Below, piece by piece: positions 31,713 to 45,222 of a stretch of 64,000 nt of DNA. This DNA comes from Planctomycetota bacterium. Lineage in GTDB: Bacteria > Planctomycetota > Phycisphaerae > Phycisphaerales > SM1A02. Where the stretch lies: assembly GCA_026386795.1 (NCBI GenBank), contig JAPLMU010000129.1:7497-71496 (forward strand). Reading direction: 5' to 3'. How positions within the stretch are numbered: the first letter of the stretch is position 1; the number at the start of each line of letters is the position of its first letter. The notes beneath the pieces are model-generated. The model saw nothing but the letters and a program-made list of their open reading frames with translations, did not search any database and had not been told where the DNA came from. A program made the translations under genes and the position numbers.

Positions 31713-31718
31713 AGTTGC

Positions 31719-32351
31719 TTACTTCAGGTCCGCGTCCACGCCGAGGTACTCGCGCATGTGCTGCTCGTACGTCTCTTGATCCTTATCACGGCTGAAATCA
31801 AGGCGCAGTTCATTGATGACCTTGGTCCCCTGCCCAATCCACTGCTTCCAAGTTTCCGCGCTGATGTTCTCAAAGATCCACTGTCCAACGGGACCACGGA
31901 ACGGCGGTTCCGCGAGCTTGTTCCCCGGCCGCCCTGTTCGCTGGCAAATGAATGTTCCAGAAGCCTTGAGACGCTCCGCAGCAGCGTCCACTTCCGCGGC
32001 AAGCTTCGGAGGCTCGCGACCGATCGATCGCAGAAGTTCGGCCATTGCGTTGCGCGGCATCATGTCGCCCTTGCGGGCGGCAGTTTCGTAGCCACGCGTC
32101 AGGACGTCAACCGCGCGGTCAGCCCAGCCCGCGCCGATCATTGCTTGACCCGCGAGTTGAAATGCCTTGCTCATGTCCGGAGCCAATTCCACGCACCGCT
32201 CGAAGCTGCGAGCAGCCTCCGCGTGTCGACCAGAATCAAGGTACGCCTTGCCGAGTGAGAAGTGCGCCATCTCGTTGGTCGGATCGGCTGATGCCATCTT
32301 CTCAAACTGGGCGATGCGGTCAACGGATTGGGGTGCGCCTGCGGTGCTCAT
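31719..32351 (-). CDS. TPR domain fused to a YggX-type Fe(2+)-trafficking domain
   Basis: N-terminal TPR (HFSLGKAYLDSGRHAEAARSFERCVELAPD). The C-terminus FICQRTGRPGNKLAEPPFRGPVGQWIFENISAETWKQWIGQGTKVINELRL aligns with E. coli YggX. Confidence 0.8.
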   Translation of the reverse strand: MSTAGAPQSVDRIAQFEKMASADPTNEMAHFSLGKAYLDSGRHAEAARSFERCVELAPDMSKAFQLAGQAMIGAGWADRAVDVLTRGYETAARKGDMMPRNAMAELLRSIGREPPKLAAEVDAAAERLKASGTFICQRTGRPGNKLAEPPFRGPVGQWIFENISAETWKQWIGQGTKVINELRLDFSRDKDQETYEQHMREYLGVDADLK

Positions 32352-34447
32352 GAACGGATCATAGGAGCGATAGCGCCAAGCGGTCGCACGGGTTTAGCAC
32401 CGCGCGCGGGACGAATCCAGTTTTTTCTGTGATACGCCCACCACTCAAGAACAAGCAATACAAGTGCGGCGGCTAACGCAAAGGGCCAGAGATCGCTCAG
32501 CGACCCGCCCTCGCTTCCTGTACCGAGTACTACCTGCGCCCCTACCGAAAGTTGATCAGCCGCAGCGATGCGGCCTTCACCCTCGGCTGTGTTCACCGCG
32601 AACATACGCCGCTGTTCTCCGCGATCATCTGTCCATCGGAACTCGTACGTGCCCGAGCGAACGAGCGGTCCATAGGTCACCGATCCCTCGCGCGCCTGCA
32701 ACGGCTGCGTTGTTCCGTCAGGAAGCGTCAGCATCGCCTCCTTCACCCCTGCCGCAGTGCGCACCGAAAGCGTTTCGCCAGGATGGTGCTCTTCCTGCAC
32801 TGCGGCCTGATCGAGTGCGCCGAGCCACTCCACCGCGTTCGCAATGAATGTCACGAAGCCGCGCTGAAATGGCCAGTTGGAATCCAGCGGCTCGAATGTT
32901 GTGATGACGGCCGCCACCGGACCACGCCGCGCGACAACTACGAGCGGCACATCCGGGCCTTCAACGATTGACTCAACATCCGAAGCAGGCGCGATCGCCG
33001 TTGCCCGAGCGATAAAGAGGTCATCGAGATTCACCGCATGCAGCAACGGATGCTCGCTGCGCTGCGAGCGCACCGAGAGTTTCTCCTTGCCTCCATACGG
33101 GTTGAGCCCTTCAATTCCCGCAGGAACGCCGAGCACTAAATAGCGGCCAGGCGGCAACTGCGCGGGAAGCGCAGCGGGCGTAGCGACGACTACGTCAAAC
33201 TCATCGCTCTTCACCCCGCGCGTTGCAAACTCGGCGGCGCTGAGAAACTCAACTTTCTCTGCAGGAATTGCCGTCACCACATTCTTCGTGGCGAAATCGA
33301 TCGAGCCGACAACCGCAATGCGCAAGCGCCGCGGCGCACTGACTGCAATGGACGCGCGATTGTCAGCGATCATCGAATCCGCACGCACCAATGAAACTGA
33401 AATCACTCCCGCGCGCGGCTGAATGATGGGCGGAAATGTCACGCGTTCGTAGCCTGGTTTATAAGGGGCCGACGCAGACCCGGCAGCCGTTGCGCTCACT
33501 GATGCGCCGCCCGTTCCCGCGAGCCCGTTACTCGCAGCGGGCACTTTCACCGGCTTCGGCGTCACTGATCGACGCACTCCGTCGATCGCCAACTCAAGGT
33601 CTGTCTCAATTGCCTCCGGACCGTCGTTGCGAACGGTGACAAACACCTGAATCACGCCGGGTTCCGTAGCGCTTCGCTCAGCGGCAATTCCTTCGATGCC
33701 AACATTCGCCCCGTCAGCACGACCGCACACGTGATAGGCAACCGTTTCTCCAGGACGAATCGCCTCCGCCGCGAGGTCCGCGATCCGACCATCAGACCAC
33801 AGTTCAAGCGAAGCCCCCTCACTTGGCGTGGCCCCCTGCGTCTCCGGGTTTACCACGGTCGCAAATGCGCGAGCGAGTGACAGCGCATCACCGATTCGAC
33901 TTCCTCCATCAGTCTGCTCAATGCGATCAACGGCGCGCTTCAAGTCACCACTTGAACGCGTGAAGGGCTGCATGATCTTGGCGGTGTCGGAAAAACTGAT
34001 GACCATCGTCTCGCCAGGAATCGTCGAGAACAACCCGCCTGCGAACAATTGGTCGATGCGTTCCTTCGCTTGCGTCTTCGCAATCGCAAGGCGAGACTTC
34101 TCGCCGTCGAGGTCCGTTGCCGACATCGATGCCGACGCGTCAATGATGATGACCGTTCGTCCACTCGATGACAGCCCAAGATCCATCCGCGGCTGCATCA
34201 GCGCAAATGCAACAAATGCAAGAAGTCCAAGTTGCAAGAAGAGCAACACGCTCGGACGCAAGCGCTGAAACGGCGTGTTTGCGCGCACATCTTCAACGCT
34301 GCGTTTCCAAAGCAATGTGCTGGGGACCGCCGTCGCTCGACGCCGCAACTTGAGAAAATACAGAGCGACGAGCAGCGGCACCAACACGGCGGCAATGGCG
34401 GCACCAATCAATGGCGTCATCCAGACAATGGCGAGCATTGCACTCAT
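32348..34447 (-). CDS. BatA-type membrane protein: N-terminal double-TM aerotolerance-regulator domain plus VWA domain
   Basis: LVPLLVALYFLKLRRR...PSTLLW at the N-terminus, VWA MIDAS-like VIIIDASASMS, and a C-terminal TM. Confidence 0.75.
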   Translation of the reverse strand: MSAMLAIVWMTPLIGAAIAAVLVPLLVALYFLKLRRRATAVPSTLLWKRSVEDVRANTPFQRLRPSVLLFLQLGLLAFVAFALMQPRMDLGLSSSGRTVIIIDASASMSATDLDGEKSRLAIAKTQAKERIDQLFAGGLFSTIPGETMVISFSDTAKIMQPFTRSSGDLKRAVDRIEQTDGGSRIGDALSLARAFATVVNPETQGATPSEGASLELWSDGRIADLAAEAIRPGETVAYHVCGRADGANVGIEGIAAERSATEPGVIQVFVTVRNDGPEAIETDLELAIDGVRRSVTPKPVKVPAASNGLAGTGGASVSATAAGSASAPYKPGYERVTFPPIIQPRAGVISVSLVRADSMIADNRASIAVSAPRRLRIAVVGSIDFATKNVVTAIPAEKVEFLSAAEFATRGVKSDEFDVVVATPAALPAQLPPGRYLVLGVPAGIEGLNPYGGKEKLSVRSQRSEHPLLHAVNLDDLFIARATAIAPASDVESIVEGPDVPLVVVARRGPVAAVITTFEPLDSNWPFQRGFVTFIANAVEWLGALDQAAVQEEHHPGETLSVRTAAGVKEAMLTLPDGTTQPLQAREGSVTYGPLVRSGTYEFRWTDDRGEQRRMFAVNTAEGEGRIAAADQLSVGAQVVLGTGSEGGSLSDLWPFALAAALVLLVLEWWAYHRKNWIRPARGAKPVRPLGAIAPMIRS

Positions 34448-35382
34448 TGCACGAGCCCTCGCTGGCGCAGGTATTCCAAGAGAAGCGCGTCGATTTCGGT
34501 GGAAGTGTCAACCACCATATGCATAATTGAGCGCCGAATTGCAAAGTCGCGTAGCCCCGCGCACCAAGCACCGAGATTCGCCCGATACTGTTCAACCAAT
34601 CCCGGGCTTGCCGTGACTTCGGCTTCGTCGCGGTCTTCCGCGTCAGTCAAACGCCAATCGCCAACAAGCCCATGTGCGCCGGGATCAATTTCCTGGGGCG
34701 CAAGCGTCTGCATGCACCAAAGGTCATAGCCGCGCCCTGCAACATAGCGAAGGCCTTTTTCGTACCCATCTTTGATCAAGAAGTCACTGACAACCACCAT
34801 CACGCCGCGCCCCTGCCGAGCGAGGGCGAGTGCCTTCATTGATTCTTCAAATGATCCGGTACCGCCGGACTTGAGATTCAAGATCCACTTGCCCATCTCT
34901 GATGTCTTGCGACGTCCACGCAGATTGGAAATCTTCTGCATGCCGCCCTCGCCGCCAAACGCAGCGATCGTCACGCGATTGTGATTGACAAGGCCGATGT
35001 AGCCAAGTGCCATTGCCAATCGCTGCGCAAACACCATTTTGTTTGGGTCGCCCCAATCCATGGATGCGCTTGTGTCAATGGCAATGACGAGCGAAAGATC
35101 CTCCTCTTCAAGAAAGATCTTGAGGAAGAGCCGATCAAGGCGTCCAAAAATGTTCCAGTCGATGAAGCGCAGGTCGTCACCGTGAACGTAGGGGCGGAAG
35201 TCAGCAAATTCAACGCTCTGACCGCGGCGCTTGGAACGGCGTTCGCCCTGAATCTTGCCAGTGAATATCTTGCGACTCACCACATCAAGTTGTCCGATGC
35301 GCGCCATCAATGCTGCATCAATGAGGTCATCAACGCGTTCTGGACGCTTGCGACTCGGTTGTCCCTGGAAGAACAAGCTCAT
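34444..35382 (-). CDS. DUF58 domain protein
   Basis: FADFRPYVHGDDLRFIDWN is the family hallmark. It sits directly downstream of MoxR. Confidence 0.9.
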   Translation of the reverse strand: MSLFFQGQPSRKRPERVDDLIDAALMARIGQLDVVSRKIFTGKIQGERRSKRRGQSVEFADFRPYVHGDDLRFIDWNIFGRLDRLFLKIFLEEEDLSLVIAIDTSASMDWGDPNKMVFAQRLAMALGYIGLVNHNRVTIAAFGGEGGMQKISNLRGRRKTSEMGKWILNLKSGGTGSFEESMKALALARQGRGVMVVVSDFLIKDGYEKGLRYVAGRGYDLWCMQTLAPQEIDPGAHGLVGDWRLTDAEDRDEAEVTASPGLVEQYRANLGAWCAGLRDFAIRRSIMHMVVDTSTEIDALLLEYLRQRGLVQ

Positions 35383-36455
35383 TGCGCGTCCTCCGGAACC
35401 TGACGCTTCAAGCGAGTAATGATCCCGCTCACGATGCGGTCGGAGTCGATCCCGTCAGCCTCCGCTTCGAAACTTGGAGCGATGCGATGGCGCAAAGCAC
35501 TTGCTGCCACTGCATGCACATCGGCAATCGAGACATGAAACCGACCATCAAGAAGTGCCCGCACCTTAGCCGTGGTCACGATGGCCTGCGCAGCACGCGG
35601 GCTCGCGCCCACCGAAATCTCGCGGCCCGCGTTGACGTCTGCGTACTCCCCACCCGGATGCGTCGCCAGGACCAATCGAATCACATAGTCCTGTACCGGA
35701 TCGGCAATCACAATGCGGCGCGCCAATCGCTGCGCCTGCAGAATGCGATCTGCGTCAAGAATCGGCGTCACCGGCGATTCCGTTGTCGTCGTGGTTCTAC
35801 GCAAGATCTCTTGCAAATCAGCCCGTTCAACTGATGGAACGGCGATTTTCAATAGAAATCGATCGAGCTGCGCTTCCGGCAGCGGGTACGTGCCTTCTTG
35901 CTCAATTGGATTCTGAGTGGCAAGCACAAGAAACGGAGCGCGCAGCCGATGCGTCTCGCCGCCCACCGTCACTGATCGCTCCTGCATTGCTTCGAGCAAC
36001 GCGGACTGGCTCTTGGGGCTTGCGCGGTTCACTTCATCAGCAAGCAGAATCTGTGTGAAGATCGGCCCCGGTCGAAACTGCATCACGCGATGCCCTGCAT
36101 CATCGTCCATGAGTATTTGCGTGCCGACGATGTCGGCTGGCATCAAATCCGGAGTGAACTGGATGCGGCTGAATTCAAGGTGCAGGGCATCGCCGAGCGT
36201 GCGAACCAAGAGTGTCTTGCCAAGACCCGGGACGCCTTCGAGCAACACATGCCCACCAGCGAAGAGTGCCCACAGCGTTTGATCGACGACTGACTGCTGC
36301 CCCACCACTCGCTTTCCAATTGCTTCCCGCAATCGCAGAGCAACCGATCGAAATGACGCACAGCGCTCGCGGGCGATGTCCTCGTTCTCAATGCCCGCAT
36401 CGAATGCCGGCAGTCGCGCGATATCGCCAGGAAGTTGGGGTGACCTAACACTCAT
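35379..36455 (-). CDS. MoxR-family AAA+ ATPase
   Basis: VLLEGVPGLGKTLLVRTL, FSRIQFTPDLMPADIVG and ILLADEVNRASPKSQSALLEAMQE. Confidence 0.9.
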   Translation of the reverse strand: MSVRSPQLPGDIARLPAFDAGIENEDIARERCASFRSVALRLREAIGKRVVGQQSVVDQTLWALFAGGHVLLEGVPGLGKTLLVRTLGDALHLEFSRIQFTPDLMPADIVGTQILMDDDAGHRVMQFRPGPIFTQILLADEVNRASPKSQSALLEAMQERSVTVGGETHRLRAPFLVLATQNPIEQEGTYPLPEAQLDRFLLKIAVPSVERADLQEILRRTTTTTESPVTPILDADRILQAQRLARRIVIADPVQDYVIRLVLATHPGGEYADVNAGREISVGASPRAAQAIVTTAKVRALLDGRFHVSIADVHAVAASALRHRIAPSFEAEADGIDSDRIVSGIITRLKRQVPEDAQ

Positions 36456-39400
36456 GCTCCGCCACCACCTTGGTCACCGGTACCACCGCCGCCGTTTCCC
36501 GTGCCGCCCGTGCCACCATTTCGATCGCCGTCGGTCTGATCTTGCGCACGACGGCGCGCAGCGCGCAACCGCGCGAGCGGATCACCTTGATCTGCTGGTG
36601 AATCCGGCGCCGTGGGCTTGGCTGGCGCACCGGGTCGGGCTCGGTCTGAATCACCTGCTGCAAGGTCGCGCGCATCCACTTTCGGCGCATCCGCGCCCGC
36701 TTCAAAGCGCGTTGCTGCAGGCGCACCACCCGAACTCGCCGTACCGGACGCTCCACCGGCAGCGCCGCCTCGACCTGCATTCGTTCGATCGACGCCCGCA
36801 CCTTCGCGCGCCCGACGAAGTGCATCAACGCCGCCGGTGCCCATGCTCGCTGCGCCGCCCGTCACGCGCGCTGCAAGTTCCTGCGCGTCGCGGCGATCAA
36901 AGGCAATGCGTCGCCACGCGACGTCGAGCAAGATCAATACCGCTGCCAGAATTGCTGCCAACTGCCACAGCGCGCGGGCTGTCCGTGATGAGCCTAAGTC
37001 GGAGCGATCAAACAACTCCCATGTCTTTGCATCCGCAAGACGCAACACGCGCCCGCCAGTGCGCTCCGCGATGGTTCGCAGCAATGCTGCGTTGTCGCGA
37101 ATGGCGCGGTATTCCGCCGGATAGGGAACGCTGATTGCGGCCTGCACGCTGCCAGCCCGCGCGGCACCATCGCCGGTACCGGCGCGCGCGAATGCAACAT
37201 TCGCCAAGTACGCGCCCGCCTGTTGCGCGTCAAACTCGCCGGTGAATCGCCCCGGACCAACTTGGCGCAGCGGTAGTTCCATCACTCGACCATCCGGAGT
37301 CACAAGCCGCGCCTCCGCTCGTGTCTCGGCCGCGAATCCGCTCTGCGCTTGTTCGCGCGTCTCAACCTCAATGAACGCGCGGTCGCCATCAATCCGGGTT
37401 GCGATACTGACATCTTGCGGCATCGCCGGGCGCATCACCCAACGCATCGATTGCTCCCAGAACGCACCGAAGCGCGCCCACTTACTCCACGCAGAACCCC
37501 AGCGGCCACTCACGTCGCTTGCAAATGCAATGCTGCGTCCGAGACCGTAATTCCAGTTGGCATAGAACGGATCGGTCCCGTCCTTATTCTTGACGATTGC
37601 GGGCACCTGCGCCAATCCTTCGCGCGGAACAGTGAGTACATAGCCGCGCACCGGCGGCAGCGAATCAAATCCCGCAAGCGGACCAGCAACCCCCGGCGCC
37701 ACTTGCGGCTGGAAGTCGCCCTCAACAATCAAGGAGCGAGATACCACCGTCGCCTCCTGAATGAATATCTGCGGCAACTTGCGCGGATTCTCAACGCGAT
37801 AGAAACGCCCGCCGGTCTTCGTTGCAATCGCCTGCATCTTGCGATGATCTTCAGGGCCACCATGACCAAGACTCGAACTGCCGCTACCCGCAAGAAGCAC
37901 AGTGGTGATCGTGATCTTCGCTGCTTTGAAATCATTCAGAAGTTCTGGAGGCGGCGCGCCTGGATCGCCATCAGAAATAACGATGACATGCTTCTGTCCA
38001 GCACGGACTTTCACCATGTCATCCAAGATCATTTCTAACGGCGTTGTAAAACTGGGCATATCCCCAACCACCATCTTCTTGGCCGCATCCTTCGCTCGCG
38101 CTTTGTCGCCGATGATCTGCAGAGGAAATCCCCAACCGTACCCGTCCTTGGTTGCGGCTCCGCCACCATAGCCAGCGCCACCAAGAGAGATCAGACCCGC
38201 GTAATCCTGGCTCGAAAGCGCATCAATTGCTGAATTGGCAACCTGCACGCCCCAGAAGTTTCCTTCAGGCATTTCACAACTGTGAAGAAGCATGGCAAGC
38301 GCGCCGCGCAAGATTTGTCGCGTCTGCGGCGGATCAAGCTTCACCGGAAGAGTCTTCTCGGTTTCCGACCCAAGCCAACCACCGGCACCGAAACTTTCCG
38401 GGCCGCCCAGCATGACCAATCCACCGCCGAGGTCATGAACATAGGAATGCAAGCCACGATCAAACTCGTTGTCGAACGACCACCGCGGGAGATTTGCAAT
38501 GATGACTGCGTCAAATCCGGCAAGGAACGCCAACCCGCGCCCCATCGCGTTTTCCGGTTGAACGCGTTCAACTTCGATCTTTCCCTCGCGCAGCGCAGTT
38601 GCCAATGCGTCGCACTCCGCCCCACCGCCCGGCTCAATGATCAGAACGCGTCCAGTGCCACCAACAAACACCACCGCTGCACCTGTGTTGTTCTGCTGAA
38701 CGGAATCCATTGCTGGATCCGTTGCCTCAAATACCGCGCGGAATCGCTGCGCACCAGTCCCGTCCGCAACAACAGGCAGTGTCACCAGATTGGCGCCAGG
38801 CTGCAGATCCACTGCGTATCCGAGACTGTCGCTCGCAGGATCAAGATCGATCGGTTCGTCGTTCTGCCACAGCAAAATGCGCCCCGTTGCTGGACGCTGG
38901 CTTCGAATAGAGATTCGCAGATCAATTGATTGACCCTCGCGCGCCCGTGTCGGCGCGCGCAGTGACTCAATGAGCACCTCACTGGTGTGCTGGTACTCAA
39001 GCGGCACAACATCAATCGGAACGCCCGCCGCTTTGGCGAGCGCAGCGGCGTCTTCCAAACTTCCCGCGGTCTGATTGCCATCAGAAAGAAGCAGAATGCG
39101 CGCGGTGGTATCGCCGGGCTGCGTTGCAAGCGCCATGCGCACTCCCGCCGCCAAGTCCGTCGCCTGCATGTCGCCGACGTGACCAGTGAGAGTGATCTCG
39201 CCAGCGTTTGCTGGCATGGCCGCGATCACTGCATCGCGTGCAACAGTAACAGCACCGACGCGATCATCAGAACGCTCTTTACGACCAACCGCATCGCGAA
39301 CCGCTTTCTCAGCTTGCGTGCGCAGCGCCAGCGGCACGCTGTCGCTGGAGTCCGCCACCACGAGCACGCTCATGGCGTCCGTCTCGCGCACGATGCTCGG

Positions 39401-39568: not shown

Positions 39569-39586
39569 GAATACTCATGCTCCACG

Positions 39587-42163
39587 CTACCCCACCGGCA
39601 CCTCATGCGGGACGGTCTGCGCGAGCGGCGCGCACAATGAATCAAGCGGCGTCACCAAAACCCGCGAATGTCCAGAATCCAGGATGAATGCCTCCTTGCC
39701 GCGCACTCCGATCGCCCACGGAAATCGCAGCGCATTTTCACCGCTCGGAACCGATCGAACCCGGTCTCCGTCGATGACGTGAAGTACGAGCGGAGTGGGC
39801 GCGCCCGACACCGCGCGCACCGTTCCGAGCGACCGTCCGTCGGCGGCGTTAAACCGCTGCACGCGGTGGTTCCCGAACTCCGTGACGAGGATCGTTCCGT
39901 CTGGAACAACTTCGAGACCATAGGGATACGCCATCTGTCCGTCATCCGGACCAGCGCTTCCGAATGAACGCACCGGCACACCTTCGATCGTGAGAACTTG
40001 AATCCGGTGGTTGCACGCGTCAGCCACATACACCTCACGGCCATCAAGCGAGAATCCAATTGACTGCGGTCGATCAAACTGCCCTGGCCCACGACCGTTG
40101 CCGCCAATCGATCTCAGAAACTTCCCCTCCGGCGTGAATACTTGGATGCGATCATTGCCTCCAAATTCACAGACCCATACTGTTCCATCGGGCGCAATCT
40201 CAACATCGCATGGATAGATGAACTGCCCGGGCCCCGTTCCGTATTCGCCGAAGCGCAACAACTCTTTGCCATCTGGCGACCAACAGATGACGCGGTGATA
40301 GTGCGTGTCAGCAACCCACACGCGGCCATCTGGACCGACACCAATTCCGGTTGGCTTTCCGAGCGATTTTTCCGGCATCGACCATTCTGCAATGAAGCTT
40401 CCATCTGGGGCAAACCGTTGAACGCGTGCTTGACGATCAACCACCAAGACTGTTCCATCACGCGGATCAATGTCCATCGCACGCGGGTATTCAAATTGTC
40501 CACGACCACGACCCGGCGCTCCAAACCAACGCACCGCTTGAACATGCGGACCGCTTGGCGGAACCGGCGTTTCGCGACATCCTGCAACGACCAGCGCCAA
40601 AAGTAGGATCGCCGCCATTCCGCGCAGACGCTCTCCGCGTGCGCACAGCATTGCCACTACAGCTCCAGCACCCGAAGCCACCACGAGCAGCGCGAGCAAT
40701 GATCCAAGCACTGTTGCCGGCTGCTGATAGTGAATGGCATTCAAGAGCGTCGATGCCGACCACGCCCAACCGGGCGGCTCGACTCGCGCGGCCGCTACCA
40801 CTTCACCCGCCGCAAGCGTTGTTCCAACAAGTGCTGCGGCAATAGCGGCGCCGCGCAATTCCGGCAACAGCGCCTGTAGCAGTCCGCGCGAATCTCCTCC
40901 GTCAAGTGCGCGCAATTCCCGGCGTTCGCGCGGTTCGCGCAGTGCTGCCATGCGTCCAAGCCATGCGCCCACTACGCCAAATCGACCAAGATGCGAGAGG
41001 ACCACCACGGCCGGCGTGTCGTAGATCCACGGCCCGATTGCATCGAGATTCCAGGCTGCAACAAGCGACACCGCCGCCACTGTTGCCGGAACAAGCGCAG
41101 CGATCATCCAGCCGGCAAGCATCACCCGTTCCGCAAGCCGCGCGTACTGCGCCCCGCGCGAAGAAGCCACCCCGCGTGCCGCAAGTACTAGGTGCCCGCA
41201 CGCCACCACGCCAATGAGAAGACCTGCAACCACGGCCGCACTGAGCGTGCCCGCAGCGCCGCGCACACTTGTCGCCATGAATCGGTCGAGTGCACCATGA
41301 GTCACAAGCGCATATGCAAGCGTTGCGAGCGGCGCAACAAGCGTGCACAGCAGCACTCCCCACGCAATGCCGCCCCTGCCGCGCCGCACCGCCGCGGGAC
41401 CATCATCACGTGGCGTAATTGGCCAGCACGCAAATATAACGGCACCGACGCACGCAAAGACAACTACCGGCCACGCCGCGCGCAACACCACACTCGCTGC
41501 TGTTCCCTGCACATCGAGGGTGCGCAATTCAAATCCAAACGTGAGTACTTGCGCTAAGTCAAATGCGATGGTCGATCCAGCAATCACCACCACGAGCGCT
41601 CCGAACGCGAGTGCCAACGCGCCACGGTCGGTGCGCCACGCGCGACGCATTCGGTCGGTCACGCCTTCGGCATCAACGGCTCCGACCTCTCGCTCAACTG
41701 ATTCTGCCCCCGCGGGACGCGCTGCAACGATCCATGCAGCAAGTGGCCACGCCCATGAAGTAAGCCCGACCATCAAGAGCGTCGTCCGCAAGGATTCCGA
41801 GTGGCCGTTGGTCGCACACCAATCCCCGAGCATTGATCCGGGGCCAGCCGCCTGCCACCATGTCCAGAAGACCGCATAGGGAGGAAGCGCGGCCGTCACC
41901 ACGGAAAGTGCGATCAGCAAATTCCCATTGCGCGCCGAACGAATCGCACGACCAACGGGCCAACCAACCGCCGTTGCGCATGCACCCGCGGCGCACGACC
42001 AACCGAACGTCGTCCACAGCGTTCGAGCACCGTTGAACGTTGCGGGGATTTCTCCACCAATTGCCAAGAGCCGTGCGCCCGCGATCATCGGCCACGCTAC
42101 AGCGACACCGAAGAGCAGCAGTGCTGCAACCGCAAACATGCGCGCACCAAATCCCCCTGACAC
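39587..42163 (-). CDS. ABC-type (MetI-like, two-domain) permease fused in frame to a six-bladed NHL-repeat domain
   Basis: N-terminal ~515 aa are polytopic, with degenerate EAA-like loops (LRALDGGDSRGLLQALLPEL). The C-terminal ~340 aa carry repeated NHL units (GQFxxPxxIxxxxDGxxxVxDxxNHRIQxF). There is an internal MAAILLLALVVAGC at residue 516. Confidence 0.7.
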   Translation of the reverse strand: MSGGFGARMFAVAALLLFGVAVAWPMIAGARLLAIGGEIPATFNGARTLWTTFGWSCAAGACATAVGWPVGRAIRSARNGNLLIALSVVTAALPPYAVFWTWWQAAGPGSMLGDWCATNGHSESLRTTLLMVGLTSWAWPLAAWIVAARPAGAESVEREVGAVDAEGVTDRMRRAWRTDRGALALAFGALVVVIAGSTIAFDLAQVLTFGFELRTLDVQGTAASVVLRAAWPVVVFACVGAVIFACWPITPRDDGPAAVRRGRGGIAWGVLLCTLVAPLATLAYALVTHGALDRFMATSVRGAAGTLSAAVVAGLLIGVVACGHLVLAARGVASSRGAQYARLAERVMLAGWMIAALVPATVAAVSLVAAWNLDAIGPWIYDTPAVVVLSHLGRFGVVGAWLGRMAALREPRERRELRALDGGDSRGLLQALLPELRGAAIAAALVGTTLAAGEVVAAARVEPPGWAWSASTLLNAIHYQQPATVLGSLLALLVVASGAGAVVAMLCARGERLRGMAAILLLALVVAGCRETPVPPSGPHVQAVRWFGAPGRGRGQFEYPRAMDIDPRDGTVLVVDRQARVQRFAPDGSFIAEWSMPEKSLGKPTGIGVGPDGRVWVADTHYHRVICWSPDGKELLRFGEYGTGPGQFIYPCDVEIAPDGTVWVCEFGGNDRIQVFTPEGKFLRSIGGNGRGPGQFDRPQSIGFSLDGREVYVADACNHRIQVLTIEGVPVRSFGSAGPDDGQMAYPYGLEVVPDGTILVTEFGNHRVQRFNAADGRSLGTVRAVSGAPTPLVLHVIDGDRVRSVPSGENALRFPWAIGVRGKEAFILDSGHSRVLVTPLDSLCAPLAQTVPHEVPVG

Positions 42164-43228
42164 TTACTTCGTCTCCTCAACCGCGCGCATGGCAGCGAAG
42201 AATGATTCAACGGCCTCGTCTGAATGTGCGGCGACTGCTCGCGCGTCAATGAGTATCGGATCTGGAACGACAAAGTCGGTCACACTTGCTGCGTACACGA
42301 GTGGCGCATGTTTCGATGGCATCTCCGCCAGTTGCCGCGCGGTCTCCGGCGAGAGCATGAACTCAACAAACATTCGCGCGGCTGCTGGATGCGGCGCGCC
42401 GCTCACCACTCCAACGGTGTTGGGAATGAAATACGTTCCGCCCCCAGCATTCGTTGCATCATGCGCGTGTCGCGGAAGGACCATCGCCAATTTCAGGCCG
42501 CGTGCCTGCGCTGCAAAGACATCGTCGCTGTCAGTGAGCCCAATGTCCGCCTCGCCACGCGCGACCGCATCAACTACGCCGGAATTGCCAGAAGTAAGCA
42601 CCTTTGGATGGTTCTCCGCAAGGCCCTCGATGAACGCCTCGTAATAGCCAGCCATCGCGTAGGTGTCCCAATAAGCCTTCATCGCACCAAGGTGACTGCG
42701 AGTCGTACCGAAGCGTGGATCCGCCATGGCGATCTTGCCGTTCCAGCGCGGCGCAATCAGGCCGGTCCATTCACTCGGCGGCATCGCCACACGGTCAGGC
42801 GCGTAGACGATGACGCGCGCGCGCCCCGCAAGTGCAAACCAACGTCCTTGTGAATCGCGCCATGCTGCGGGCCATTGTGCGGCGAAAGACTGCGGTGCGC
42901 CATCAGTGGCAGCAGCGGATGTCGCACCAGCAACGAGCAGCGGCTCCGTGATGCCGTCAGCCGCAAGCGCTACCTGCGCGGCTTGTTCGTTTGACCAGAA
43001 GACATCAGCGCGCGGGCGGTCATGTTCGGCGCGCAGCGTGTTCGCGAGCCCGGTGGTCTTGGTGGCCTCGGTATCAAACTTCGCATCAACGCGAATGCCC
43101 GTCTCTTTCTCAAACCGTTCGAACACGGGGCGCGCCACGGATTCATCTGCACTCGCGTAGACGGTCACGCTCGGGGTGCGATCACATCCGCCCGCGACGA
43201 GAGCGAATAGGGATGCAGAAGCCGTCAT
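42164..43228 (-). CDS. ABC transporter substrate-binding lipoprotein, Fe(III)/thiamine type
   Basis: ATG 43228 gives MTASASLFALVAGGC (lipobox). VTVYASADESVARPVFERFEKETGIRVDAKFD is typical of FbpA/AfuA-like binding proteins. Confidence 0.7.
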   Translation of the reverse strand: MTASASLFALVAGGCDRTPSVTVYASADESVARPVFERFEKETGIRVDAKFDTEATKTTGLANTLRAEHDRPRADVFWSNEQAAQVALAADGITEPLLVAGATSAAATDGAPQSFAAQWPAAWRDSQGRWFALAGRARVIVYAPDRVAMPPSEWTGLIAPRWNGKIAMADPRFGTTRSHLGAMKAYWDTYAMAGYYEAFIEGLAENHPKVLTSGNSGVVDAVARGEADIGLTDSDDVFAAQARGLKLAMVLPRHAHDATNAGGGTYFIPNTVGVVSGAPHPAAARMFVEFMLSPETARQLAEMPSKHAPLVYAASVTDFVVPDPILIDARAVAAHSDEAVESFFAAMRAVEETK

Positions 43229-43268
43229 GCATGCTGTTGCGAGGCGCTGACCTGCTGCCAGACCCCGA

Positions 43269-45197
43269 CTACTTGCCACTCGCGCCTCCAACTGGAGCGC
43301 CAGCCGCTGGCTTCGCCGCCTCCACTCCGCGTTCCTCGAACTTCTTGCGGAGGTCACCGAAGTAACGCTTATGAACATCACGCAAGTGCGCGGGCACCGG
43401 GTCGTCCTCTGATCCACGCTCGTACCCCGTGGCAATCGTGCCGGCGACTTCCTGTAATCCAACGCGGCTCTCGCCGACTGGCGACTGACCCGCAACAAGT
43501 TGCCGCGCAATCACATCGCCCTCCTGCTTCTGGCCTTTTTCCTTCTGGAGTTTCGTGCCGAATCCTGTTTCGCGGAAGGCGCGGTCACCGCCGCCTGCCT
43601 CGGCGCGGTTTCCAGTGGAACCCTGCTTCTTTCCGCCGCCTTTGCCGTTCTTCGCACTTTCGGCACTCGCACTCAGCGCGCTATCCGCCTCCGCGTCGCT
43701 CATGCTCTCCGATTGCTGACCGCCTTGGCTTTGACTGTTCGCACTATCCGCCGCCATTGCCATCTGCCGGTCAGACTCTGCTTCGTCAAGCATCTTTGAC
43801 ATGTCGCCGCCATCCTTGCCGGACTTGTCGCCCTGACCGGACTGCTGTTGCGATTCACTGCCCTTCTCGCCCTTCTCACCCTTCTCGCCGCTCTGACCCT
43901 TCTGACCCTGCTCACCCTTCTGACCTTGCTGCCCCTGTTGACCAGGACTCTTGCATTGCGAAGCCATCTGATCCATCTGCTGGCTCATCTGCCCAAGCTT
44001 CGATTGCGCGTCCTTCACAGACTGAGCCATCTTTTGCAGCGACTCTTTCTGCGATTCGTTTAAATCCTTTGACTGCGCAATTGCCTGCTGCAATGCCAAC
44101 GGATTGTTGGCAAGCGCCGGATCCATGCCGGCACTTCGCAGCGCCTCCGCCATCTTGGCCGGATCCTTCGAAAGTGTTTCCAGTTGCTTCGCCGTGTTCT
44201 CGAGTGCCTTCGCTAACTTCTCTCGATCTTCCTTTGAGAGTTCGCTGCCCGCCGCCGCCTTCTTCAACTCTTCGACCGCTTTCTTGGCAGCCTCAAAGTC
44301 ACCACGCTTGAGCGCTTCAGCAAGATCGCGTGCGGCATTCTCGTCCTTCGGCAAGTCCAACTTTGCAAGTGAATCCCGCAGTTCCCGCGATGCCTTGGAT
44401 TCTTTGCTGTCAGCTACTTCCGCCAAACGCTCCTGTAATTCAGCCATGCGCTTCAAACTCTCGCGCGCGGCGTCATCGGGGCTGCGGACGGGACCATTGG
44501 CTGCCTCGTCAAGCGTGCGTCGCGCCGTCTCCAACTCTGCGTCGAGCTTCGCTGCAAGTTCCGGCGACTGCTCGACCTTCTTGAGTAGATCTTCGAGTCG
44601 TTTCTCTTCCGGACTCTTGGGACGTTCAGCAGCAAGCGCAGCATCGGGAGCCTTCACCGCACTGTCCGCAGATATGCGCTGCGGCACAAACCACCATGCC
44701 GCAATCACCGCCGCGAGTAACGCCGGCGCCGCCCACCAACGATCTGAAAGTCGAACGGGAAACACCGCGCGAATGCAACCAAGAAGATCAGGATCCTTTG
44801 CGAACGCAACTGCATCGGCAATCGCTGCGCGCGCAAACGCATCACGTGCAACCGAGTCATCCGCGTCAAGTGCCAACGCCGTCGAGAACCGCTCGCCGGA
44901 ATGAATCCGAGCATCAAGTTCCAACGCTGCCTGGTCCATGGTGAGTTGGCGTGCACGCACCCGGAGCCAACCAACGAGCGTCGCCAAGCCACAAGCGAGC
45001 GCGATCGATCCGACCAACCACATCGCGCTGCGGCTTGGAACATTCAGCGCCGCAGATGCACCAAGCAACCGCCGCTCAAGAATGGACAGCAGTACTAATC
45101 CCAGCAGAAACGACACCACCGTCCAGGAGGCAAGAACCCAGTCCTGAAATAGCAGTCGGATGCGCGCGAGCGCCACGAGTGATCGAATCCGGTCCAT
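43269..45197 (-). CDS. membrane-anchored E/K/Q-rich coiled-coil low-complexity protein (DUF4175-like by architecture)
   Basis: ATG 45197 is preceded by GAGGA. N-terminal TM segments, a long charged helical region, ten GXY triplets, and a C-terminal PVPAHLRDVHKRYFGDL motif. Confidence 0.45.
   Translation of the reverse strand: MDRIRSLVALARIRLLFQDWVLASWTVVSFLLGLVLLSILERRLLGASAALNVPSRSAMWLVGSIALACGLATLVGWLRVRARQLTMDQAALELDARIHSGERFSTALALDADDSVARDAFARAAIADAVAFAKDPDLLGCIRAVFPVRLSDRWWAAPALLAAVIAAWWFVPQRISADSAVKAPDAALAAERPKSPEEKRLEDLLKKVEQSPELAAKLDAELETARRTLDEAANGPVRSPDDAARESLKRMAELQERLAEVADSKESKASRELRDSLAKLDLPKDENAARDLAEALKRGDFEAAKKAVEELKKAAAGSELSKEDREKLAKALENTAKQLETLSKDPAKMAEALRSAGMDPALANNPLALQQAIAQSKDLNESQKESLQKMAQSVKDAQSKLGQMSQQMDQMASQCKSPGQQGQQGQKGEQGQKGQSGEKGEKGEKGSESQQQSGQGDKSGKDGGDMSKMLDEAESDRQMAMAADSANSQSQGGQQSESMSDAEADSALSASAESAKNGKGGGKKQGSTGNRAEAGGGDRAFRETGFGTKLQKEKGQKQEGDVIARQLVAGQSPVGESRVGLQEVAGTIATGYERGSEDDPVPAHLRDVHKRYFGDLRKKFEERGVEAAKPAAGAPVGGASGK
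43854..43943. repeat. 9-bp-periodic coding repeat giving ten consecutive Gly-X-Y triplets
   Basis: Residues 440-469 are GQQGQQGQKGEQGQKGQSGEKGEKGEKGSE. Confidence 0.8.
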
Positions 45198-45216
45198 GCG
45201 GGGGTCCTCTGTGCAG

Positions 45217-45222
45217 AGTGTA
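45217..45222 (-). promoter_or_regulatory. -10-like TACACT upstream of the first gene of the MoxR/Bat-like operon
   Basis: The reverse complement of AGTGTA is TACACT, 19 nt upstream of ATG 45197. GAGGA lies in between. Confidence 0.35.

What the first reader, a model, noticed from the sequence alone, without database searches (positions are those of the whole stretch)
31719..45197. Eight-gene MoxR-DUF58-BatA/VWA operon that embeds an iron-type ABC binding protein, a permease-NHL fusion and ends in a TPR-YggX fusion
Seen in sequence: eight minus-strand ORFs run from 45197 down to 31719. The junctions are 40 bp (43269/43228), 0 bp (42164/42163) and 18 bp (39587/39568), plus four 4-bp start/stop overlaps (36455/36452, 35382/35379, 34447/34444, 32351/32348). 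This looks like one coupled unit. The gene order is:
- a membrane-anchored E/K/Q-rich coiled-coil protein;
- an Fe(III)/thiamine-type binding lipoprotein;
- a polytopic MetI-like permease fused to an NHL propeller;
- a 1038-aa BatA_N/VWA/GATase-like/VWA protein;
- a MoxR AAA+ ATPase;
- a DUF58 protein;
- a BatA_N/VWA protein;
- a TPR::YggX fusion.
Established knowledge: MoxR AAA+ ATPases act with VWA partners as maturation or metal-insertion chaperones. Bacteroides Bat (aerotolerance) operons share the MoxR-DUF58-BatA/B-TPR layout, and their mechanism is unknown. YggX is an Fe(II)-trafficking and oxidative-damage protein.
Inference: the Bat-like core appears wired to iron handling here, through the binding protein, the permease and YggX. 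The Feo locus starts about 1 kb away on the other strand. The binding-protein/permease pair has no nucleotide-binding subunit anywhere in the window. I do not know of a described system that couples a MoxR/VWA envelope module to an ATPase-less ABC half-transporter and an NHL propeller.
Basis: partly seen in the sequence, partly recalled or inferred. Interest (0 to 1): 0.7.

Follow-up and report, generated by a model that had tools for sequence, protein, structure and literature searches.

The report
MoxR/VWA operon with orphan ABC permease
A seven-gene envelope operon, conserved in hundreds of Phycisphaerales-type planctomycete species, joins a MoxR/DUF58/VWA chaperone set to an ABC-importer-derived membrane protein, a beta-propeller lipoprotein and a remodelled iron-binding-type lipoprotein, with no ABC ATPase nearby; it hands the poorly understood "Bat-like" MoxR systems a candidate client in cis.

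Summary
The eight minus-strand ORFs, their junctions and nearly all domain calls are real. Seven of them (g1-g7, 32348-45197) form a conserved unit. In GTDB species genomes, g4-g7 follow g3 in 54/54 loci and g1-g2 precede it in 56/57.

- **g3:** a diverged FbpB-type double ABC permease (profile hit to PDB 9j4r, E=5e-19). It is fused through an invariant internal lipobox Cys to an NHL propeller. In sister lineages the permease and the NHL lipoprotein are separate adjacent genes in the same MoxR operon, often without the binding protein.
- **ABC ATPase:** none lies within 10 kb in any of the 86 motif-scanned loci (or L087-L089), or in the window.
- **g2:** FbpA-like by sequence, but the Fe3+ ligand positions His9, Tyr195 and Tyr196 are invariant Asp. 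A classical ferric-iron binder is unlikely.
- **TPR-YggX (g8):** a frequent neighbour (40/50) but usually on the opposite strand, and it tracks pyrD.
- **Feo:** adjacent in only about 40% of loci.

The "iron-wired" reading is therefore only partly supported. My best mechanism is Mxa-like: a MoxR/DUF58/VWA machine that loads or remodels the periplasmic propeller, with the permease as docking platform. No paper in the searched library describes this. I rate it a new variant of a known kind.

The parts
43269..45197 (-). g1: membrane protein, 642 aa, with two N-terminal TM helices, a long E/K/Q-rich helical region and a conserved C-terminal motif. It belongs to no known family.
   Evidence: ORF. 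TM segments 21-39 and 58-76. No Pfam, NCBIfam or PDB match beyond coiled-coil noise. It precedes g2-g3 in 56/57 loci and is absent upstream in sister-lineage loci L087 and L089-L091.
42164..43228 (-). g2: FbpA-family (cluster D) substrate-binding lipoprotein with lipobox Cys15. Its pocket is lined by invariant carboxylates instead of the ferric-iron ligands.
   Evidence: Pfam SBP_bac_11/8/1/6. Best PDB matches are all Fe3+-binding proteins (7w3w at 6e-20). It is 27% identical to H. influenzae FbpA 1D9V. His9, Tyr195 and Tyr196 align to D28, D235 and D236, and Glu57 aligns to position 80 next to E81; D28, D235 and D236 are 72/72 and E81 is 69/72 in orthologues.
42521..42535 (-). Codons for the invariant T-D-[ST]-D-D motif of g2 (residues 232-236). 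It replaces the N-N-Y-Y iron-ligand motif of FbpA.
40637..42163 (-). g3, residues 1-509: diverged FbpB-type ABC importer membrane domain made of two fused permease modules, with recognisable EAA-like motifs in both halves.
   Evidence: A profile of 29 orthologues hits PDB 9j4r_A 'Iron ABC transporter permease' over its full length at E=4.7e-19. BPD_transp_1 is reached by only 1 of 29 members. AF2 model pLDDT is 85. EAA-like '[DE]LxALDG' appears at 159-165 and 416-422, while the inferred periplasmic loops FDLAQ (201-205) and LNAxHYQxP (474-482) are the best conserved parts.
40577..40618 (-). g3, residues 516-529: internal lipoprotein-type signal anchor ending in lipobox Cys529. It marks the junction between the permease and the propeller.
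   Evidence: Cys is present in 74/74 orthologues and the -1 residue is G/A/S in 73/74, the same lipobox style as the g2 signal peptide. In L087-L091 the permease and NHL protein are separate genes; the three NHL N-termini read (L087, L088, L089) carry a lipobox.
39629..40546 (-). g3, residues 540-845: six-bladed NHL beta-propeller, predicted to be periplasmic.
   Evidence: Pfam NHL 3.7e-27 and SGL 9.6e-15. Foldseek top hits are NHL domains of Thin, TRIM71 and TRIM2 (E down to 4.5e-20, TM-score about 0.88 on the target) and PAL 3fvz.
36452..39568 (-). g4: 1038-aa membrane protein. It has two N-terminal TM helices, a VWA domain with MIDAS DSSDS, beta-sandwiches, a GATase1-like domain, a second VWA, a C-terminal TM helix (866-884) and a disordered tail.
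   Evidence: Pfam. TM segments and MIDAS. AF2 pLDDT 75. Foldseek finds VWA proteins, including the B. fragilis aerotolerance-related protein 4jdu, the GATase1-like protein 2gk3 (TM-score 0.73 on the target) and CARDB. It follows g3 in 54/54 loci.
35379..36455 (-). g5: MoxR-type AAA+ ATPase.
   Evidence: AAA_3 8e-63 and AAA_lid_2 1.8e-16. Walker A GVPGLGKT. Present in 54/54 loci.
34444..35382 (-). g6: DUF58 protein (VWA-like, MIDAS DTSAS). No TM segment was found.
   Evidence: DUF58 1.2e-25. MIDAS and absence of TM segments. Present in 54/54 loci.
32348..34447 (-). g7: BatA_N plus VWA membrane protein (MIDAS DASAS) with a C-terminal TM helix at 649-667.
   Evidence: BatA 1.2e-08 and VWA_2 8e-14. 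TM segments and MIDAS. Present in 54/54 loci.
31719..32351 (-). g8: TPR::YggX (Iron_traffic) fusion. It is co-transcribed here by position, but it is only a variable neighbour of the operon elsewhere.
   Evidence: Iron_traffic 1.7e-16 and TPR_2 1e-07. Of 50 loci it is on the same strand in 14, the opposite strand in 26 and absent in 10; it co-occurs with pyrD in 34/40.
45198..45328 (.). 131-bp divergent intergenic region between g1 and orfX. It is the likely shared promoter region.
   Evidence: Sequence. No Fur-box-like site and no informative promoter match.
45329..46180 (+). orfX: secreted 283-aa protein with a signal peptide, a coiled coil, a P/T-rich linker and a C-terminal domain. It belongs to no family and is the first gene of the divergent Feo operon.
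   Evidence: It is detectable and divergent from g1 in 22/50 loci, in some of them without Feo.
46211..48793 (+). BFD-like [2Fe-2S] protein (46211-46510), FeoA (46557-46859) and FeoB (46856-48793).
   Evidence: Fer2_BFD 5.4e-08. FeoA 4e-09 and FeoB_N 1.4e-43. FeoB lies upstream of the operon in 18/45 loci.

Best explanation
Genes g1-g7 encode one inner-membrane and periplasmic assembly that has been inherited vertically in Phycisphaerales-type planctomycetes.

**Shown**
- The deep core is an ABC-importer-derived double permease, an NHL-propeller lipoprotein (fused to the permease in this lineage), a large VWA/GATase1-like membrane protein, a MoxR AAA+ ATPase, DUF58 and a BatA-type VWA membrane protein.
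- In the window's clade, an FbpA-derived lipoprotein and a membrane-anchored coiled-coil protein also belong to the unit.

**Inferred mechanism**
The system works like the Mxa accessory system of methanol dehydrogenase. There, MxaR (MoxR), MxaS (DUF58) and the proteins MxaA, C, K and L (of which MxaC and MxaL carry VWA domains) insert Ca2+ into a periplasmic beta-propeller enzyme, and the binding-protein-like MxaJ acts as a chaperone. By analogy:
1. Cytoplasmic MoxR and DUF58 use ATP to remodel the membrane VWA proteins g4 and g7.
2. Their extracytoplasmic domains act on the NHL propeller, loading a cation or cofactor or switching its state.
3. The binding lipoprotein g2, whose pocket is lined by invariant Asp/Glu, supplies or senses a cationic ligand by docking on the periplasmic face of the permease.
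4. The permease serves mainly as a docking platform or conduit rather than a conventional ATP-driven ferric-iron importer.

TPR-YggX and the Feo operon are neighbours, not core parts.
For: **Conserved unit**
- g4-g7 follow g3 in 54/54 loci and g1-g2 precede it in 56/57.
- 4-bp overlaps recur in independently called genes of L001, L002 and L005.

**Deep core without the binding protein**
- L089, L090 and L091 carry permease, NHL lipoprotein and g4, continuing in L089 with MoxR, DUF58 and g7. No SBP or g1 lies in the upstream sequence held: 10 kb in L089, 3.7 kb in L090 and 1.8 kb in L091.
- L087 carries the binding protein but has separate permease and NHL genes.

**Permease**
- It is an FbpB homologue.
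- Its family is small and separate: only 449 representatives at E<=1e-3 among 1.84 billion proteins.
- Its best conserved parts are the loops inferred to face the periplasm.

**No ABC ATPase in cis**
- None was found in the window or in 89 loci (L001-L089).

**Binding protein**
- The Fe3+ ligand positions His9, Tyr195 and Tyr196 are replaced by invariant Asp.

**VWA and localisation**
- MIDAS motifs are intact in g4, g6 and g7.
- The VWA domain of the BatA-like protein BB0173 is periplasmic (PMC5700661).

**Precedent**
- MxaR, MxaS and MxaA/C/K/L are all required for Ca2+ incorporation into the periplasmic propeller MDH, and MxaJ is a binding-protein-like chaperone (PMC12276312).
- MoxR/VWA pairs as metal-insertion machines: NorQD (abstracts listed).
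Against: - No catalytic or metal-binding site can be identified in the NHL domain. Its invariant residues are those of the generic NHL repeat.
- The Mxa system has no ABC-type membrane domain, and MxaJ belongs to a different binding-protein family.
- The EAA-like coupling motifs are recognisably retained in both halves, in fused and unfused family members alike: D164 in 73/74, G165 in 54/74, D421/G422 in 56/74 and 49/74, and R418 in 52/55 and G422 in 45/55 of the unfused members. This is what one expects if a cytoplasmic partner such as an ABC ATPase encoded elsewhere still docks.
- Whether the VWA domains of g4 and g7 are periplasmic is inferred from BB0173, not tested here.
- No expression, interaction or phenotype data exist.
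Confidence: 0.4

Rival explanations
1. g2 and g3 form a conventional binding-protein-dependent ABC importer for an unknown cationic or zwitterionic solute. Its ATPase is encoded elsewhere and may be shared with other transporters. The NHL domain would be an extra receptor or enzyme fused to the permease, as substrate-binding domains are fused in OpuA/GlnPQ-type importers. The MoxR/DUF58/VWA genes would be a co-transcribed Bat-like envelope module that assembles or regulates the transporter, or does something separate.
For: - FbpA and FbpB homology.
- EAA-like coupling motifs are kept in both permease halves across fused and unfused members.
- The binding pocket is invariant, which implies a specific ligand.
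- ABC importers whose ATPase is encoded elsewhere are known, for example the shared MsiK-type ATPases of actinobacteria. Planctomycete genomes are known for scattered gene organisation. Both points are from my own knowledge.
Against: - No ABC ATPase lies within 10 kb in 89 loci (L001-L089) or in the window.
- Sister-lineage operons keep permease, NHL and g4 (L089 also MoxR, DUF58 and g7) but have no binding protein in the upstream sequence held. This is hard to square with a binding-protein-dependent importer as the primary function.
- The permease is always next to the NHL protein and g4.
- The permease family is tiny and sharply separated from canonical FbpB.
Confidence: 0.3
2. One reading: an iron-handling system. 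The Bat-like core would be wired to iron uptake or trafficking through the FbpA-type binding protein, the FbpB-type permease, TPR-YggX and the divergently transcribed BFD-FeoAB operon, for example to load iron into envelope proteins or protect them from oxidative damage.
For: - The closest solved relatives of g2 are all ferric-binding proteins, and the closest of g3 is an iron ABC permease.
- A YggX domain is encoded within 10 kb in 40/50 loci, usually directly after g7.
- The BFD-FeoA-FeoB operon starts 131 bp from g1 on the other strand. A Feo operon upstream on the other strand recurs in relatives whose g3 is only 35-39% identical.
- MoxR/VWA pairs insert iron in NorQD (abstracts listed).
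Against: - The ferric ligands Tyr195 and Tyr196 and His9 are replaced by invariant Asp.
- FeoB is adjacent in only 18/45 loci.
- g8 is on the opposite strand in 26/50 loci and absent in 10/50, and it travels with pyrD.
- Housekeeping neighbours (pyrD, ispD) are conserved to a similar degree, so neighbourhood alone is weak evidence.
- There is no Fur-box-like site, and the palindrome upstream of feoA is not conserved.
Confidence: 0.15
3. The MoxR/DUF58 module has taken over the role of the ABC ATPase. It would dock on the retained EAA-like coupling helices and gate or energise the permease.
For: - EAA-like motifs are conserved although no ABC ATPase is ever encoded in cis.
- MoxR and DUF58 are always in cis in loci that extend far enough.
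Against: - I know of no precedent.
- MoxR hexamers and ABC ATPase dimers have unrelated geometries.
- The evidence is purely circumstantial.
Confidence: 0.1
4. Chance juxtaposition of an ABC half-transporter and a Bat-like operon, or a mobile conflict or defence system of the MoxR-vWA ternary type.
For: g5 also matches the bpMoxR model, at 3.2e-14.
Against: - The gene order is fixed across dozens of species-level genomes.
- No VMAP, iSTAND or effector domains were found.
- No PADLOC hit.
- AAA_3 scores far higher than bpMoxR (8e-63).
- The flanks are housekeeping genes, not mobile elements.
Confidence: 0.02

Closest known systems
Mxa accessory system of PQQ methanol dehydrogenase (MxaR, MxaS, MxaA/C/K/L and MxaJ acting on MxaF)
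   Same: - A MoxR ATPase, a DUF58 protein and membrane VWA proteins are encoded together with a periplasmic binding-protein-like protein and a periplasmic beta-propeller.
- All of MxaR, S, A, C, K and L are needed for cation (Ca2+) incorporation into the propeller, and MxaJ is a chaperone (PMC12276312).
   Different: - The propeller here is a 6-bladed NHL domain, not an 8-bladed PQQ enzyme.
- The binding protein is FbpA-type, not the MxaJ family.
- An ABC-type double permease and a coiled-coil membrane protein are present, and they have no Mxa counterpart.
- g4 is far larger and carries a GATase1-like domain.
- No cofactor is known.
Bat (Bacteroides aerotolerance) and spirochaete bat/BB0170-BB0176 clusters; MoxR (AAA_3)-DUF58-VWA clusters in general
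   Same: - MoxR (AAA_3), DUF58 and BatA_N+VWA membrane proteins, with a TPR protein nearby.
- The function is unresolved. The Leptospira bat deletion had no oxidative-stress phenotype (PMC3557215). The BB0173 VWA domain is periplasmic (PMC5700661).
- The g4 model matches a B. fragilis aerotolerance-related VWA structure, 4jdu.
   Different: - No Pfam match to any BatD-type family was returned for g1-g8.
- The TPR protein is fused to YggX and is not a fixed member.
- The conserved insertion of SBP, permease and NHL propeller, plus g1, is not a feature of the described Bat operons.
FbpABC / HitABC / SfuABC ferric-iron ABC importers
   Same: - g2 is 27% identical to H. influenzae FbpA, and its top PDB hits are all ferric-binding proteins.
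- A profile of g3's membrane domain aligns over the full length with an iron ABC permease, 9j4r.
- Both have the two-module permease architecture.
   Different: - The Fe3+ ligand residues are not conserved.
- There is no FbpC ATPase in cis in any locus.
- The permease is fused or adjacent to an NHL lipoprotein.
- The family is small and well separated from canonical FbpB.
NorQ/NorD, CbbQ/CbbO and RavA/ViaA (MoxR-class AAA+ with a VWA partner)
   Same: An ATP-driven MoxR hexamer works with a MIDAS-containing VWA adaptor to remodel a client, and in NorQD to insert a metal (abstracts listed).
   Different: - Those are two-component cytoplasmic systems acting on a defined enzyme.
- Here there are three VWA-type proteins, two of them membrane-anchored with large predicted extracytoplasmic parts, and the client is only inferred.
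NosDFY-NosL assembly machinery for N2O reductase, and OpuA/GlnPQ-type importers with a receptor domain fused to the permease (both from my own knowledge, not tested here)
   Same: - In Nos, an ABC-type membrane complex and a lipoprotein chaperone serve maturation of a periplasmic beta-propeller enzyme.
- In OpuA/GlnPQ, an extracytoplasmic domain is tethered to a permease by an extra TM anchor.
   Different: - Those systems have their ABC ATPase, and they have no MoxR/VWA module.
- NosY is an exporter-type membrane domain.

Membership tests
MoxR (AAA_3)-DUF58-VWA / Bat-like operon | MoxR-class AAA+ ATPase of the AAA_3 type | tested here: met
   g5: AAA_3 8e-63 (210.6 bits against a cut-off of 27) and AAA_lid_2 1.8e-16.
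MoxR (AAA_3)-DUF58-VWA / Bat-like operon | DUF58 gene directly next to moxR | tested here: met
   g6: DUF58 1.2e-25, with a 4-bp overlap with g5. Present in 54/54 loci.
MoxR (AAA_3)-DUF58-VWA / Bat-like operon | BatA_N double-TM anchor plus a VWA domain with a MIDAS motif | tested here: met
   g7: BatA 1.2e-08, VWA_2 8e-14, MIDAS DASAS. g4: two N-terminal TM helices, VWA, MIDAS DSSDS, but no BatA Pfam hit.
MoxR (AAA_3)-DUF58-VWA / Bat-like operon | BatC/BatE-type TPR proteins and BatD as operon members | tested here: not met
   g8's TPR gives only 17.9 bits to the Leptospira BatC model (cut-off 175). No BatD-type family was returned for g1-g8. g8 is on the opposite strand or absent in 36/50 loci.
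MoxR (AAA_3)-DUF58-VWA / Bat-like operon | Aerotolerance or stress phenotype | not testable with these tools
   This needs genetics in a cultured Phycisphaerales strain.
FbpABC-type ferric-iron ABC importer | Cluster-D binding protein homologous to FbpA | tested here: met
   PDB 7w3w at 6e-20, and 1D9V at 27% identity with E=2e-18.
FbpABC-type ferric-iron ABC importer | Fe3+-coordinating Tyr-Tyr pair (Tyr195/Tyr196 of hFbpA), with His9 and Glu57 in that class | tested here: not met
   These positions align to D235/D236, D28 and N80 (with E81 adjacent). D28, D235 and D236 are 72/72 in orthologues. The ligand identities of hFbpA are from established knowledge.
FbpABC-type ferric-iron ABC importer | Two-module type-I importer permease (FbpB) | tested here: met
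   Profile A2 against 9j4r_A: E=4.7e-19, positions 24-490 aligned to 25-490. Pfam BPD_transp_1 is reached by only 1 of 29 members, at 6.3e-06.
FbpABC-type ferric-iron ABC importer | EAA coupling motif for docking the ATPase | tested here: inconclusive
   '[DE]LxALDG' is recognisable in both halves, but the regions are no better conserved than the membrane domain on average (0.38-0.42 against 0.44). The inferred periplasmic loops reach 0.62-0.66.
FbpABC-type ferric-iron ABC importer | ABC ATPase (FbpC) in the operon | tested here: not met
   No ORF with Walker A plus the ABC signature occurs in the window (ORFs of 150 aa or more) or in loci L001-L089 (ORFs of 60 aa or more). An ATPase elsewhere in the genome could not be tested.
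Mxa-type MoxR/VWA cation-insertion system | MoxR, DUF58 and membrane VWA proteins encoded with a periplasmic beta-propeller and a binding-protein-like partner | tested here: met
   Gene content, compared with PMC12276312. This is a resemblance of architecture only.
Mxa-type MoxR/VWA cation-insertion system | The client is a PQQ/Ca2+ (or lanthanide) 8-bladed dehydrogenase, with an MxaJ-family partner | tested here: not met
   The propeller is a 6-bladed NHL domain with no PQQ-family hit. g2 is FbpA-type. So this is not a member, only a functional analogue.
MoxR-vWA ternary conflict systems (Kaur et al. 2020) | A VMAP, iSTAND, FtsH or dedicated propeller third component; variable effector domains; mobile neighbourhoods | tested here: not met
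   No such domains were found. The synteny is fixed, with housekeeping flanks. No PADLOC hit. The definition is taken from PMC7159879.
YggX (Fe2+-trafficking / oxidative damage protection protein) | Iron_traffic domain | tested here: met
   g8 residues 134-204: PF04362 1.7e-16, 60.2 bits (cut-off 27). NCBIfam PRK05408 gives 60.9 bits, below its cut-off of 74. The domain is fused to an N-terminal TPR region.

The most novel reading that the evidence does not exclude
An ABC-importer-type membrane domain has permanently lost its ABC ATPase. It is instead gated or energised by a MoxR AAA+/DUF58/VWA machine, and forms a new kind of envelope device that moves or inserts a cationic ligand into a periplasmic propeller lipoprotein. 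That lipoprotein would be released from a permease-propeller precursor by signal peptidase II cleavage at an internal lipobox.
Probability: 0.12. Interest if true: 0.9.

Novelty: new variant of a known kind. Interest (0 to 1): 0.62.

Why it matters
MoxR-DUF58-VWA ("Bat-like") operons are among the most widespread bacterial gene clusters of unknown mechanism. For most of them no client is known. This variant encodes a candidate client (an NHL propeller lipoprotein), a candidate ligand carrier with an invariant, testable pocket, and a membrane platform, all in cis. It is fixed in at least 576 matched stretches in species-representative genomes of an environmentally abundant clade. That makes three questions directly testable:
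- What do these MoxR systems act on?
- How does a cytoplasmic AAA+ ATPase reach a periplasmic target?
- Can an ABC importer membrane domain work without a cognate ATPase, and in sister lineages without a binding protein?

It is also a warning for annotation. Similarity would label g2 and g3 "iron(III) ABC transporter", yet g2 lacks the iron ligands.

Tried and rejected
- **g1 as a DUF4175/TIGR02302-type protein** (the partner in alphaproteobacterial MoxR operons, from memory). Pfam, NCBIfam and PDB scans of 27 orthologues gave only coiled-coil noise. The idea is unsupported.
- **Fur box.** The best match to the E. coli consensus is 12/19, spread at random across the window. The palindrome CGCAATATCATTGCG upstream of feoA is not found upstream of feoA in any related locus, including the close relatives L007 and L011.
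- **Promoter and terminator scan of 31000-47000.** Fewer sites than in shuffled sequence, so it is uninformative.
- **Foldseek with the whole g3 model.** The propeller dominated the hit list and hid the membrane domain. The profile search against PDB sequences solved this instead.
- **Homologue search with g4, to find out-of-clade operons.** The 120 hits listed are all 44% identical or more, so it did not reach outside the clade. The representative search with the g3 membrane domain did.
- **g4 model.** It gave only generic VWA, GATase1-like and beta-sandwich matches.
- **PADLOC**, **Rfam** and **tRNA** scans: nothing found.
- **Conflict-system reading.** Rejected.
- **A catalytic site in the NHL domain.** The invariant residues are the generic NHL repeat positions, so there is no evidence either way.

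Full report
**1.

The junctions are 40, 0 and 18 bp plus four 4-bp overlaps. Pfam confirms the domain calls:
- a solute-binding protein (g2);
- an NHL propeller at the C-terminus of g3;
- VWA_2, VWA and GATase1_like in g4;
- a MoxR AAA_3 ATPase (g5, 8e-63);
- DUF58 (g6);
- BatA_N plus VWA (g7);
- TPR plus Iron_traffic/YggX (g8, 1.7e-16).

g1 has two N-terminal TM helices followed by a long charged helical region, and it matches no family. g2 starts with a lipoprotein signal (lipobox Cys15). No ORF of 150 aa or more in the 64-kb window has an ABC signature, and the only Walker A belongs to MoxR. FeoA and FeoB are present on the other strand.

**2. The surroundings**

On the plus strand, a secreted 283-aa protein of no known family (orfX, 45329-46180) starts 131 bp from the g1 start codon. 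It is followed by a BFD-like [2Fe-2S] protein (46211-46510, Fer2_BFD 5.4e-08), then feoA (46557-46859) and feoB. Downstream of g8 lie a Zincin_1 gene and pyrD, which converge on it.

**3. Conservation of the unit**

Homologues of g3 are full-length permease-NHL proteins from Planctomycetota MAGs. The 80 best loci that were kept are nearly all labelled Planctomycetota, mostly Phycisphaerales. I located homologues of every window gene in these 80 loci with phmmer:
- g4, g5, g6 and g7 follow g3, on the same strand and in the same order, in 54 of 54 loci with enough downstream sequence.
- g2 and g1 precede g3 in 56 of 57.
- Independent gene calls in L001, L002 and L005 show the same 4-bp overlaps.

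So g1-g7 are one conserved, probably translationally coupled unit.

g8 behaves differently:
- It lies within 10 kb downstream in 40 of 50 loci.
- It is co-directional in only 14 of them, including all the close relatives of this window. It is on the opposite strand in 26 and absent in 10.
- It co-occurs with pyrD in 34 of its 40 occurrences, and pyrD never appears without it.

FeoB is upstream in 18 of 45 loci. orfX is detectable and divergent from g1 in 22 of 50, sometimes without Feo. Housekeeping genes (pyrD, ispD) are conserved neighbours to a similar degree, so general synteny in this clade must be discounted.

**4. What g3 is**

Pfam does not recognise g3's N-terminal 510 residues. A profile of 29 orthologues, however, matches PDB 9j4r chain A, "Iron ABC transporter permease", over its whole length at E=4.7e-19. 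One orthologue reaches BPD_transp_1 at 6e-06. The domain is therefore a diverged FbpB-type double permease. The AF2 model is confident (pLDDT 85, pTM 0.82). Its propeller matches NHL domains of Thin and TRIM71 at TM-score about 0.88 on the target, and also PAL.

Between the last permease helix and the propeller lies a segment that looks exactly like a lipoprotein signal peptide: a basic stretch, a hydrophobic helix, and L-V-V-A-G-C. The Cys is present in 74/74 orthologues and the -1 residue is G/A/S in 73/74. This is the same lipobox style as in the bona fide lipoprotein g2.

An all-against-library HMMER search with the membrane domain alone found only 449 representatives at E<=1e-3 among 1.84 billion proteins. 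Of the best 150, 71 are fused-length and 54 are about 500-580 aa. I looked at the context of five of the short ones:
- **L087:** SBP, permease (528 aa), NHL lipoprotein (305 aa, signal ending LTGC), g4, MoxR, DUF58, g7.
- **L089:** permease, NHL lipoprotein, g4, MoxR, DUF58, g7, with no binding protein, no g1 and no ABC ATPase within 10 kb.
- **L090 and L091:** an aminopeptidase gene, then permease, NHL and g4.
- **L088:** an FG-GAP protein gene, then permease and NHL.

Two conclusions follow:
- g3 is a fusion of a permease gene with the lipoprotein gene that follows it, and the junction keeps the lipoprotein signal.
- The deepest conserved set is permease, NHL lipoprotein, g4, MoxR, DUF58 and g7. 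The binding protein and g1 either belong to the window's clade only or were lost in the sister lineage.

**5. Is the permease still a transporter half?**

No ORF with Walker A plus the ABC signature occurs in any of the 89 loci scanned (L001-L089). On the other hand, both halves keep an EAA-like motif, "[DE]-L-x-A-L-D-G":
- D164 in 73/74 and G165 in 54/74;
- D421 in 56/74 and G422 in 49/74;
- in the unfused members, R418 in 52/55 and G422 in 45/55.

The best conserved parts are the two loops after the post-EAA helices, FDLAQ at 201-205 and LNAxHYQxP at 474-482, where H478 is invariant. By homology with type-I importers these loops face the periplasm. Their mean column conservation is 0.62-0.66, against 0.44 for the whole membrane domain and 0.38-0.42 for the EAA regions.

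This evidence is mixed. The periplasmic face is under the strongest constraint, but something probably still docks on the cytoplasmic coupling helices.

**6. What g2 is**

All the top PDB matches are ferric-binding proteins (7w3w at 6e-20, Thermus FbpA, H. influenzae FbpA). I checked my recalled hFbpA sequence against 1D9V and the alignment shows every residue identical. I then aligned it to g2: 27% identity, E=2e-18.

| hFbpA iron ligand | g2 position | Conservation in 72 orthologues |
|---|---|---|
| His9 | D28 | 72/72 |
| Glu57 | N80, next to E81 | position 80 is S/N/G; E81 69/72 |
| Tyr195 | D235 | 72/72 |
| Tyr196 | D236 | 72/72 |

The ligand identities of hFbpA are established knowledge. 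The same DD-for-YY replacement shows in the HMMER alignments to 7w3w and 3wae. T232, D233, F173-G174-T175-T176, H179 and G214-N215 are also invariant or nearly so. The pocket is therefore specific and conserved, but it is not the tyrosinate ferric site that defines FbpA. Its carboxylate lining suggests a cation or an amine-bearing ligand. That last step is an inference.

**7. The other components**

g4, g6 and g7 all keep the first MIDAS motif: DSSDS, DTSAS and DASAS. g4 and g7 each have N-terminal TM helices and one C-terminal TM helix. This would place their large middle parts on one side of the membrane. In the Borrelia BatA-like protein BB0173 the VWA domain is periplasmic (PMC5700661).

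The g4 model (pLDDT 75) matches VWA proteins, including a B. fragilis aerotolerance-related protein (4jdu). It also matches a GATase1-like protein (2gk3) and CARDB-type sandwiches. MoxR and DUF58 have no TM segments.

Nothing matches defence-system models. The hallmarks of the MoxR-vWA conflict systems are variable effectors, VMAP or iSTAND components and mobility, and all of them are absent.

**8. Mechanism**

The best documented system with the same parts list is the mxa cluster. MxaR (MoxR), MxaS (DUF58) and MxaA/C/K/L (with VWA domains in MxaC and MxaL) are each required for Ca2+ incorporation into the periplasmic beta-propeller methanol dehydrogenase. The binding-protein-like MxaJ is a chaperone that holds the propeller open for cofactor loading (PMC12276312). 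NorQD shows the same MoxR/VWA logic for iron insertion (abstracts listed).

By analogy, I propose that MoxR/DUF58 drive the membrane VWA proteins g4 and g7 to load or remodel the NHL propeller. g2 would deliver or sense a cationic ligand at the periplasmic face of the permease, and the permease would act as platform or conduit. I give this about 0.4.

The rivals are:
- **A conventional importer whose ATPase is encoded elsewhere (0.3).** It is favoured by the retained EAA motifs. It is disfavoured by the sister operons without a binding protein and by the universal absence of an ATPase in cis.
- **MoxR replacing the ABC ATPase (0.1).**
- **Chance juxtaposition or a conflict system (about 0.02).**

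**9. Novelty**

Full-text searches returned nothing that describes this arrangement. The term sets were MoxR/DUF58/BatA, aerotolerance/MoxR/von Willebrand, Phycisphaerae/MoxR, NHL repeat/MoxR and Planctomycetes/DUF58. The parts are all of known kinds and the core is a known kind of operon. What is new is:
- the fixed combination;
- the ATPase-less, and sometimes binding-protein-less, ABC membrane domain;
- the internal lipobox fusion;
- the remodelled FbpA pocket.

I therefore rate it a new variant of a known kind, with interest 0.62.

Noticed in passing
window 45329-48793 (+): A divergent four-gene operon lies 131 bp from g1. It encodes a secreted coiled-coil protein of no known family (orfX, 283 aa), a BFD-like [2Fe-2S] protein, FeoA and FeoB. 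orfX is found divergent from g1 in relatives that lack Feo at that position, so it may belong with the g1-g7 unit rather than with Feo.
   Followed up: partly
window 40577-40618 (-), g3 residues 516-529: An internal lipoprotein-type signal with an invariant lipobox Cys sits inside a polytopic membrane protein. The NHL propeller may be lipidated and cleaved off by signal peptidase II. In L087, L088 and L089 the read N-terminus of the separate NHL protein carries the same kind of signal.
   Followed up: yes
L089:10001-19849, L090:3691-9508, L091:1826-7234: A sister lineage carries permease, NHL lipoprotein and g4, continuing in L089 with MoxR, DUF58 and g7. There is no binding protein or g1 in cis. 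In L089 the upstream neighbours are accB/accC-type genes and a BioY gene follows.
   Followed up: partly
L024:12751-16419: Two extra same-strand genes (568 and 584 aa) are inserted between g3 and g4. Both have weak C-terminal dockerin/EF-hand-like (Ca2+-binding type) matches, E about 1e-3.
   Followed up: partly
L038:3985-12430: This is the one locus of 57 in which g3 is not preceded by g1 and g2. A MoaA-like radical-SAM gene and two ORFs of no known family lie upstream instead. It could be a rearrangement or an assembly artefact.
   Followed up: partly
window 46527-46541: A near-perfect palindrome, CGCAATA-T-CATTGCG, lies between the BFD-like gene and feoA. It is not found upstream of feoA in any related locus, so it is probably not a shared regulatory site.
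   Followed up: yes
L001:4030-4776, L004:2335-3312, L005:4612-5490: In more distant relatives a PilZ-domain gene sits next to feoA, between it and the g1 end of the locus (in L001 and L005 between the BFD-like gene and feoA). The window has no such gene.
   Followed up: no
window 43269-43950 approx. (g1 residues about 415-470) and 36452-36870 (g4 residues about 900-1038): g1 contains a collagen-like G-x-x run (GQQGQQGQKGEQGQKGQSGEKGEKGEKG; Pfam Collagen E=0.003). g4 ends in a roughly 140-residue Gly/Asp/Ala-rich tail predicted to be disordered (pLDDT below 50). Both are low-complexity regions of unknown role.
   Followed up: no
window 1-64000: There is no tRNA gene and no Rfam family at gathering threshold anywhere in the 64-kb window.
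   Followed up: yes
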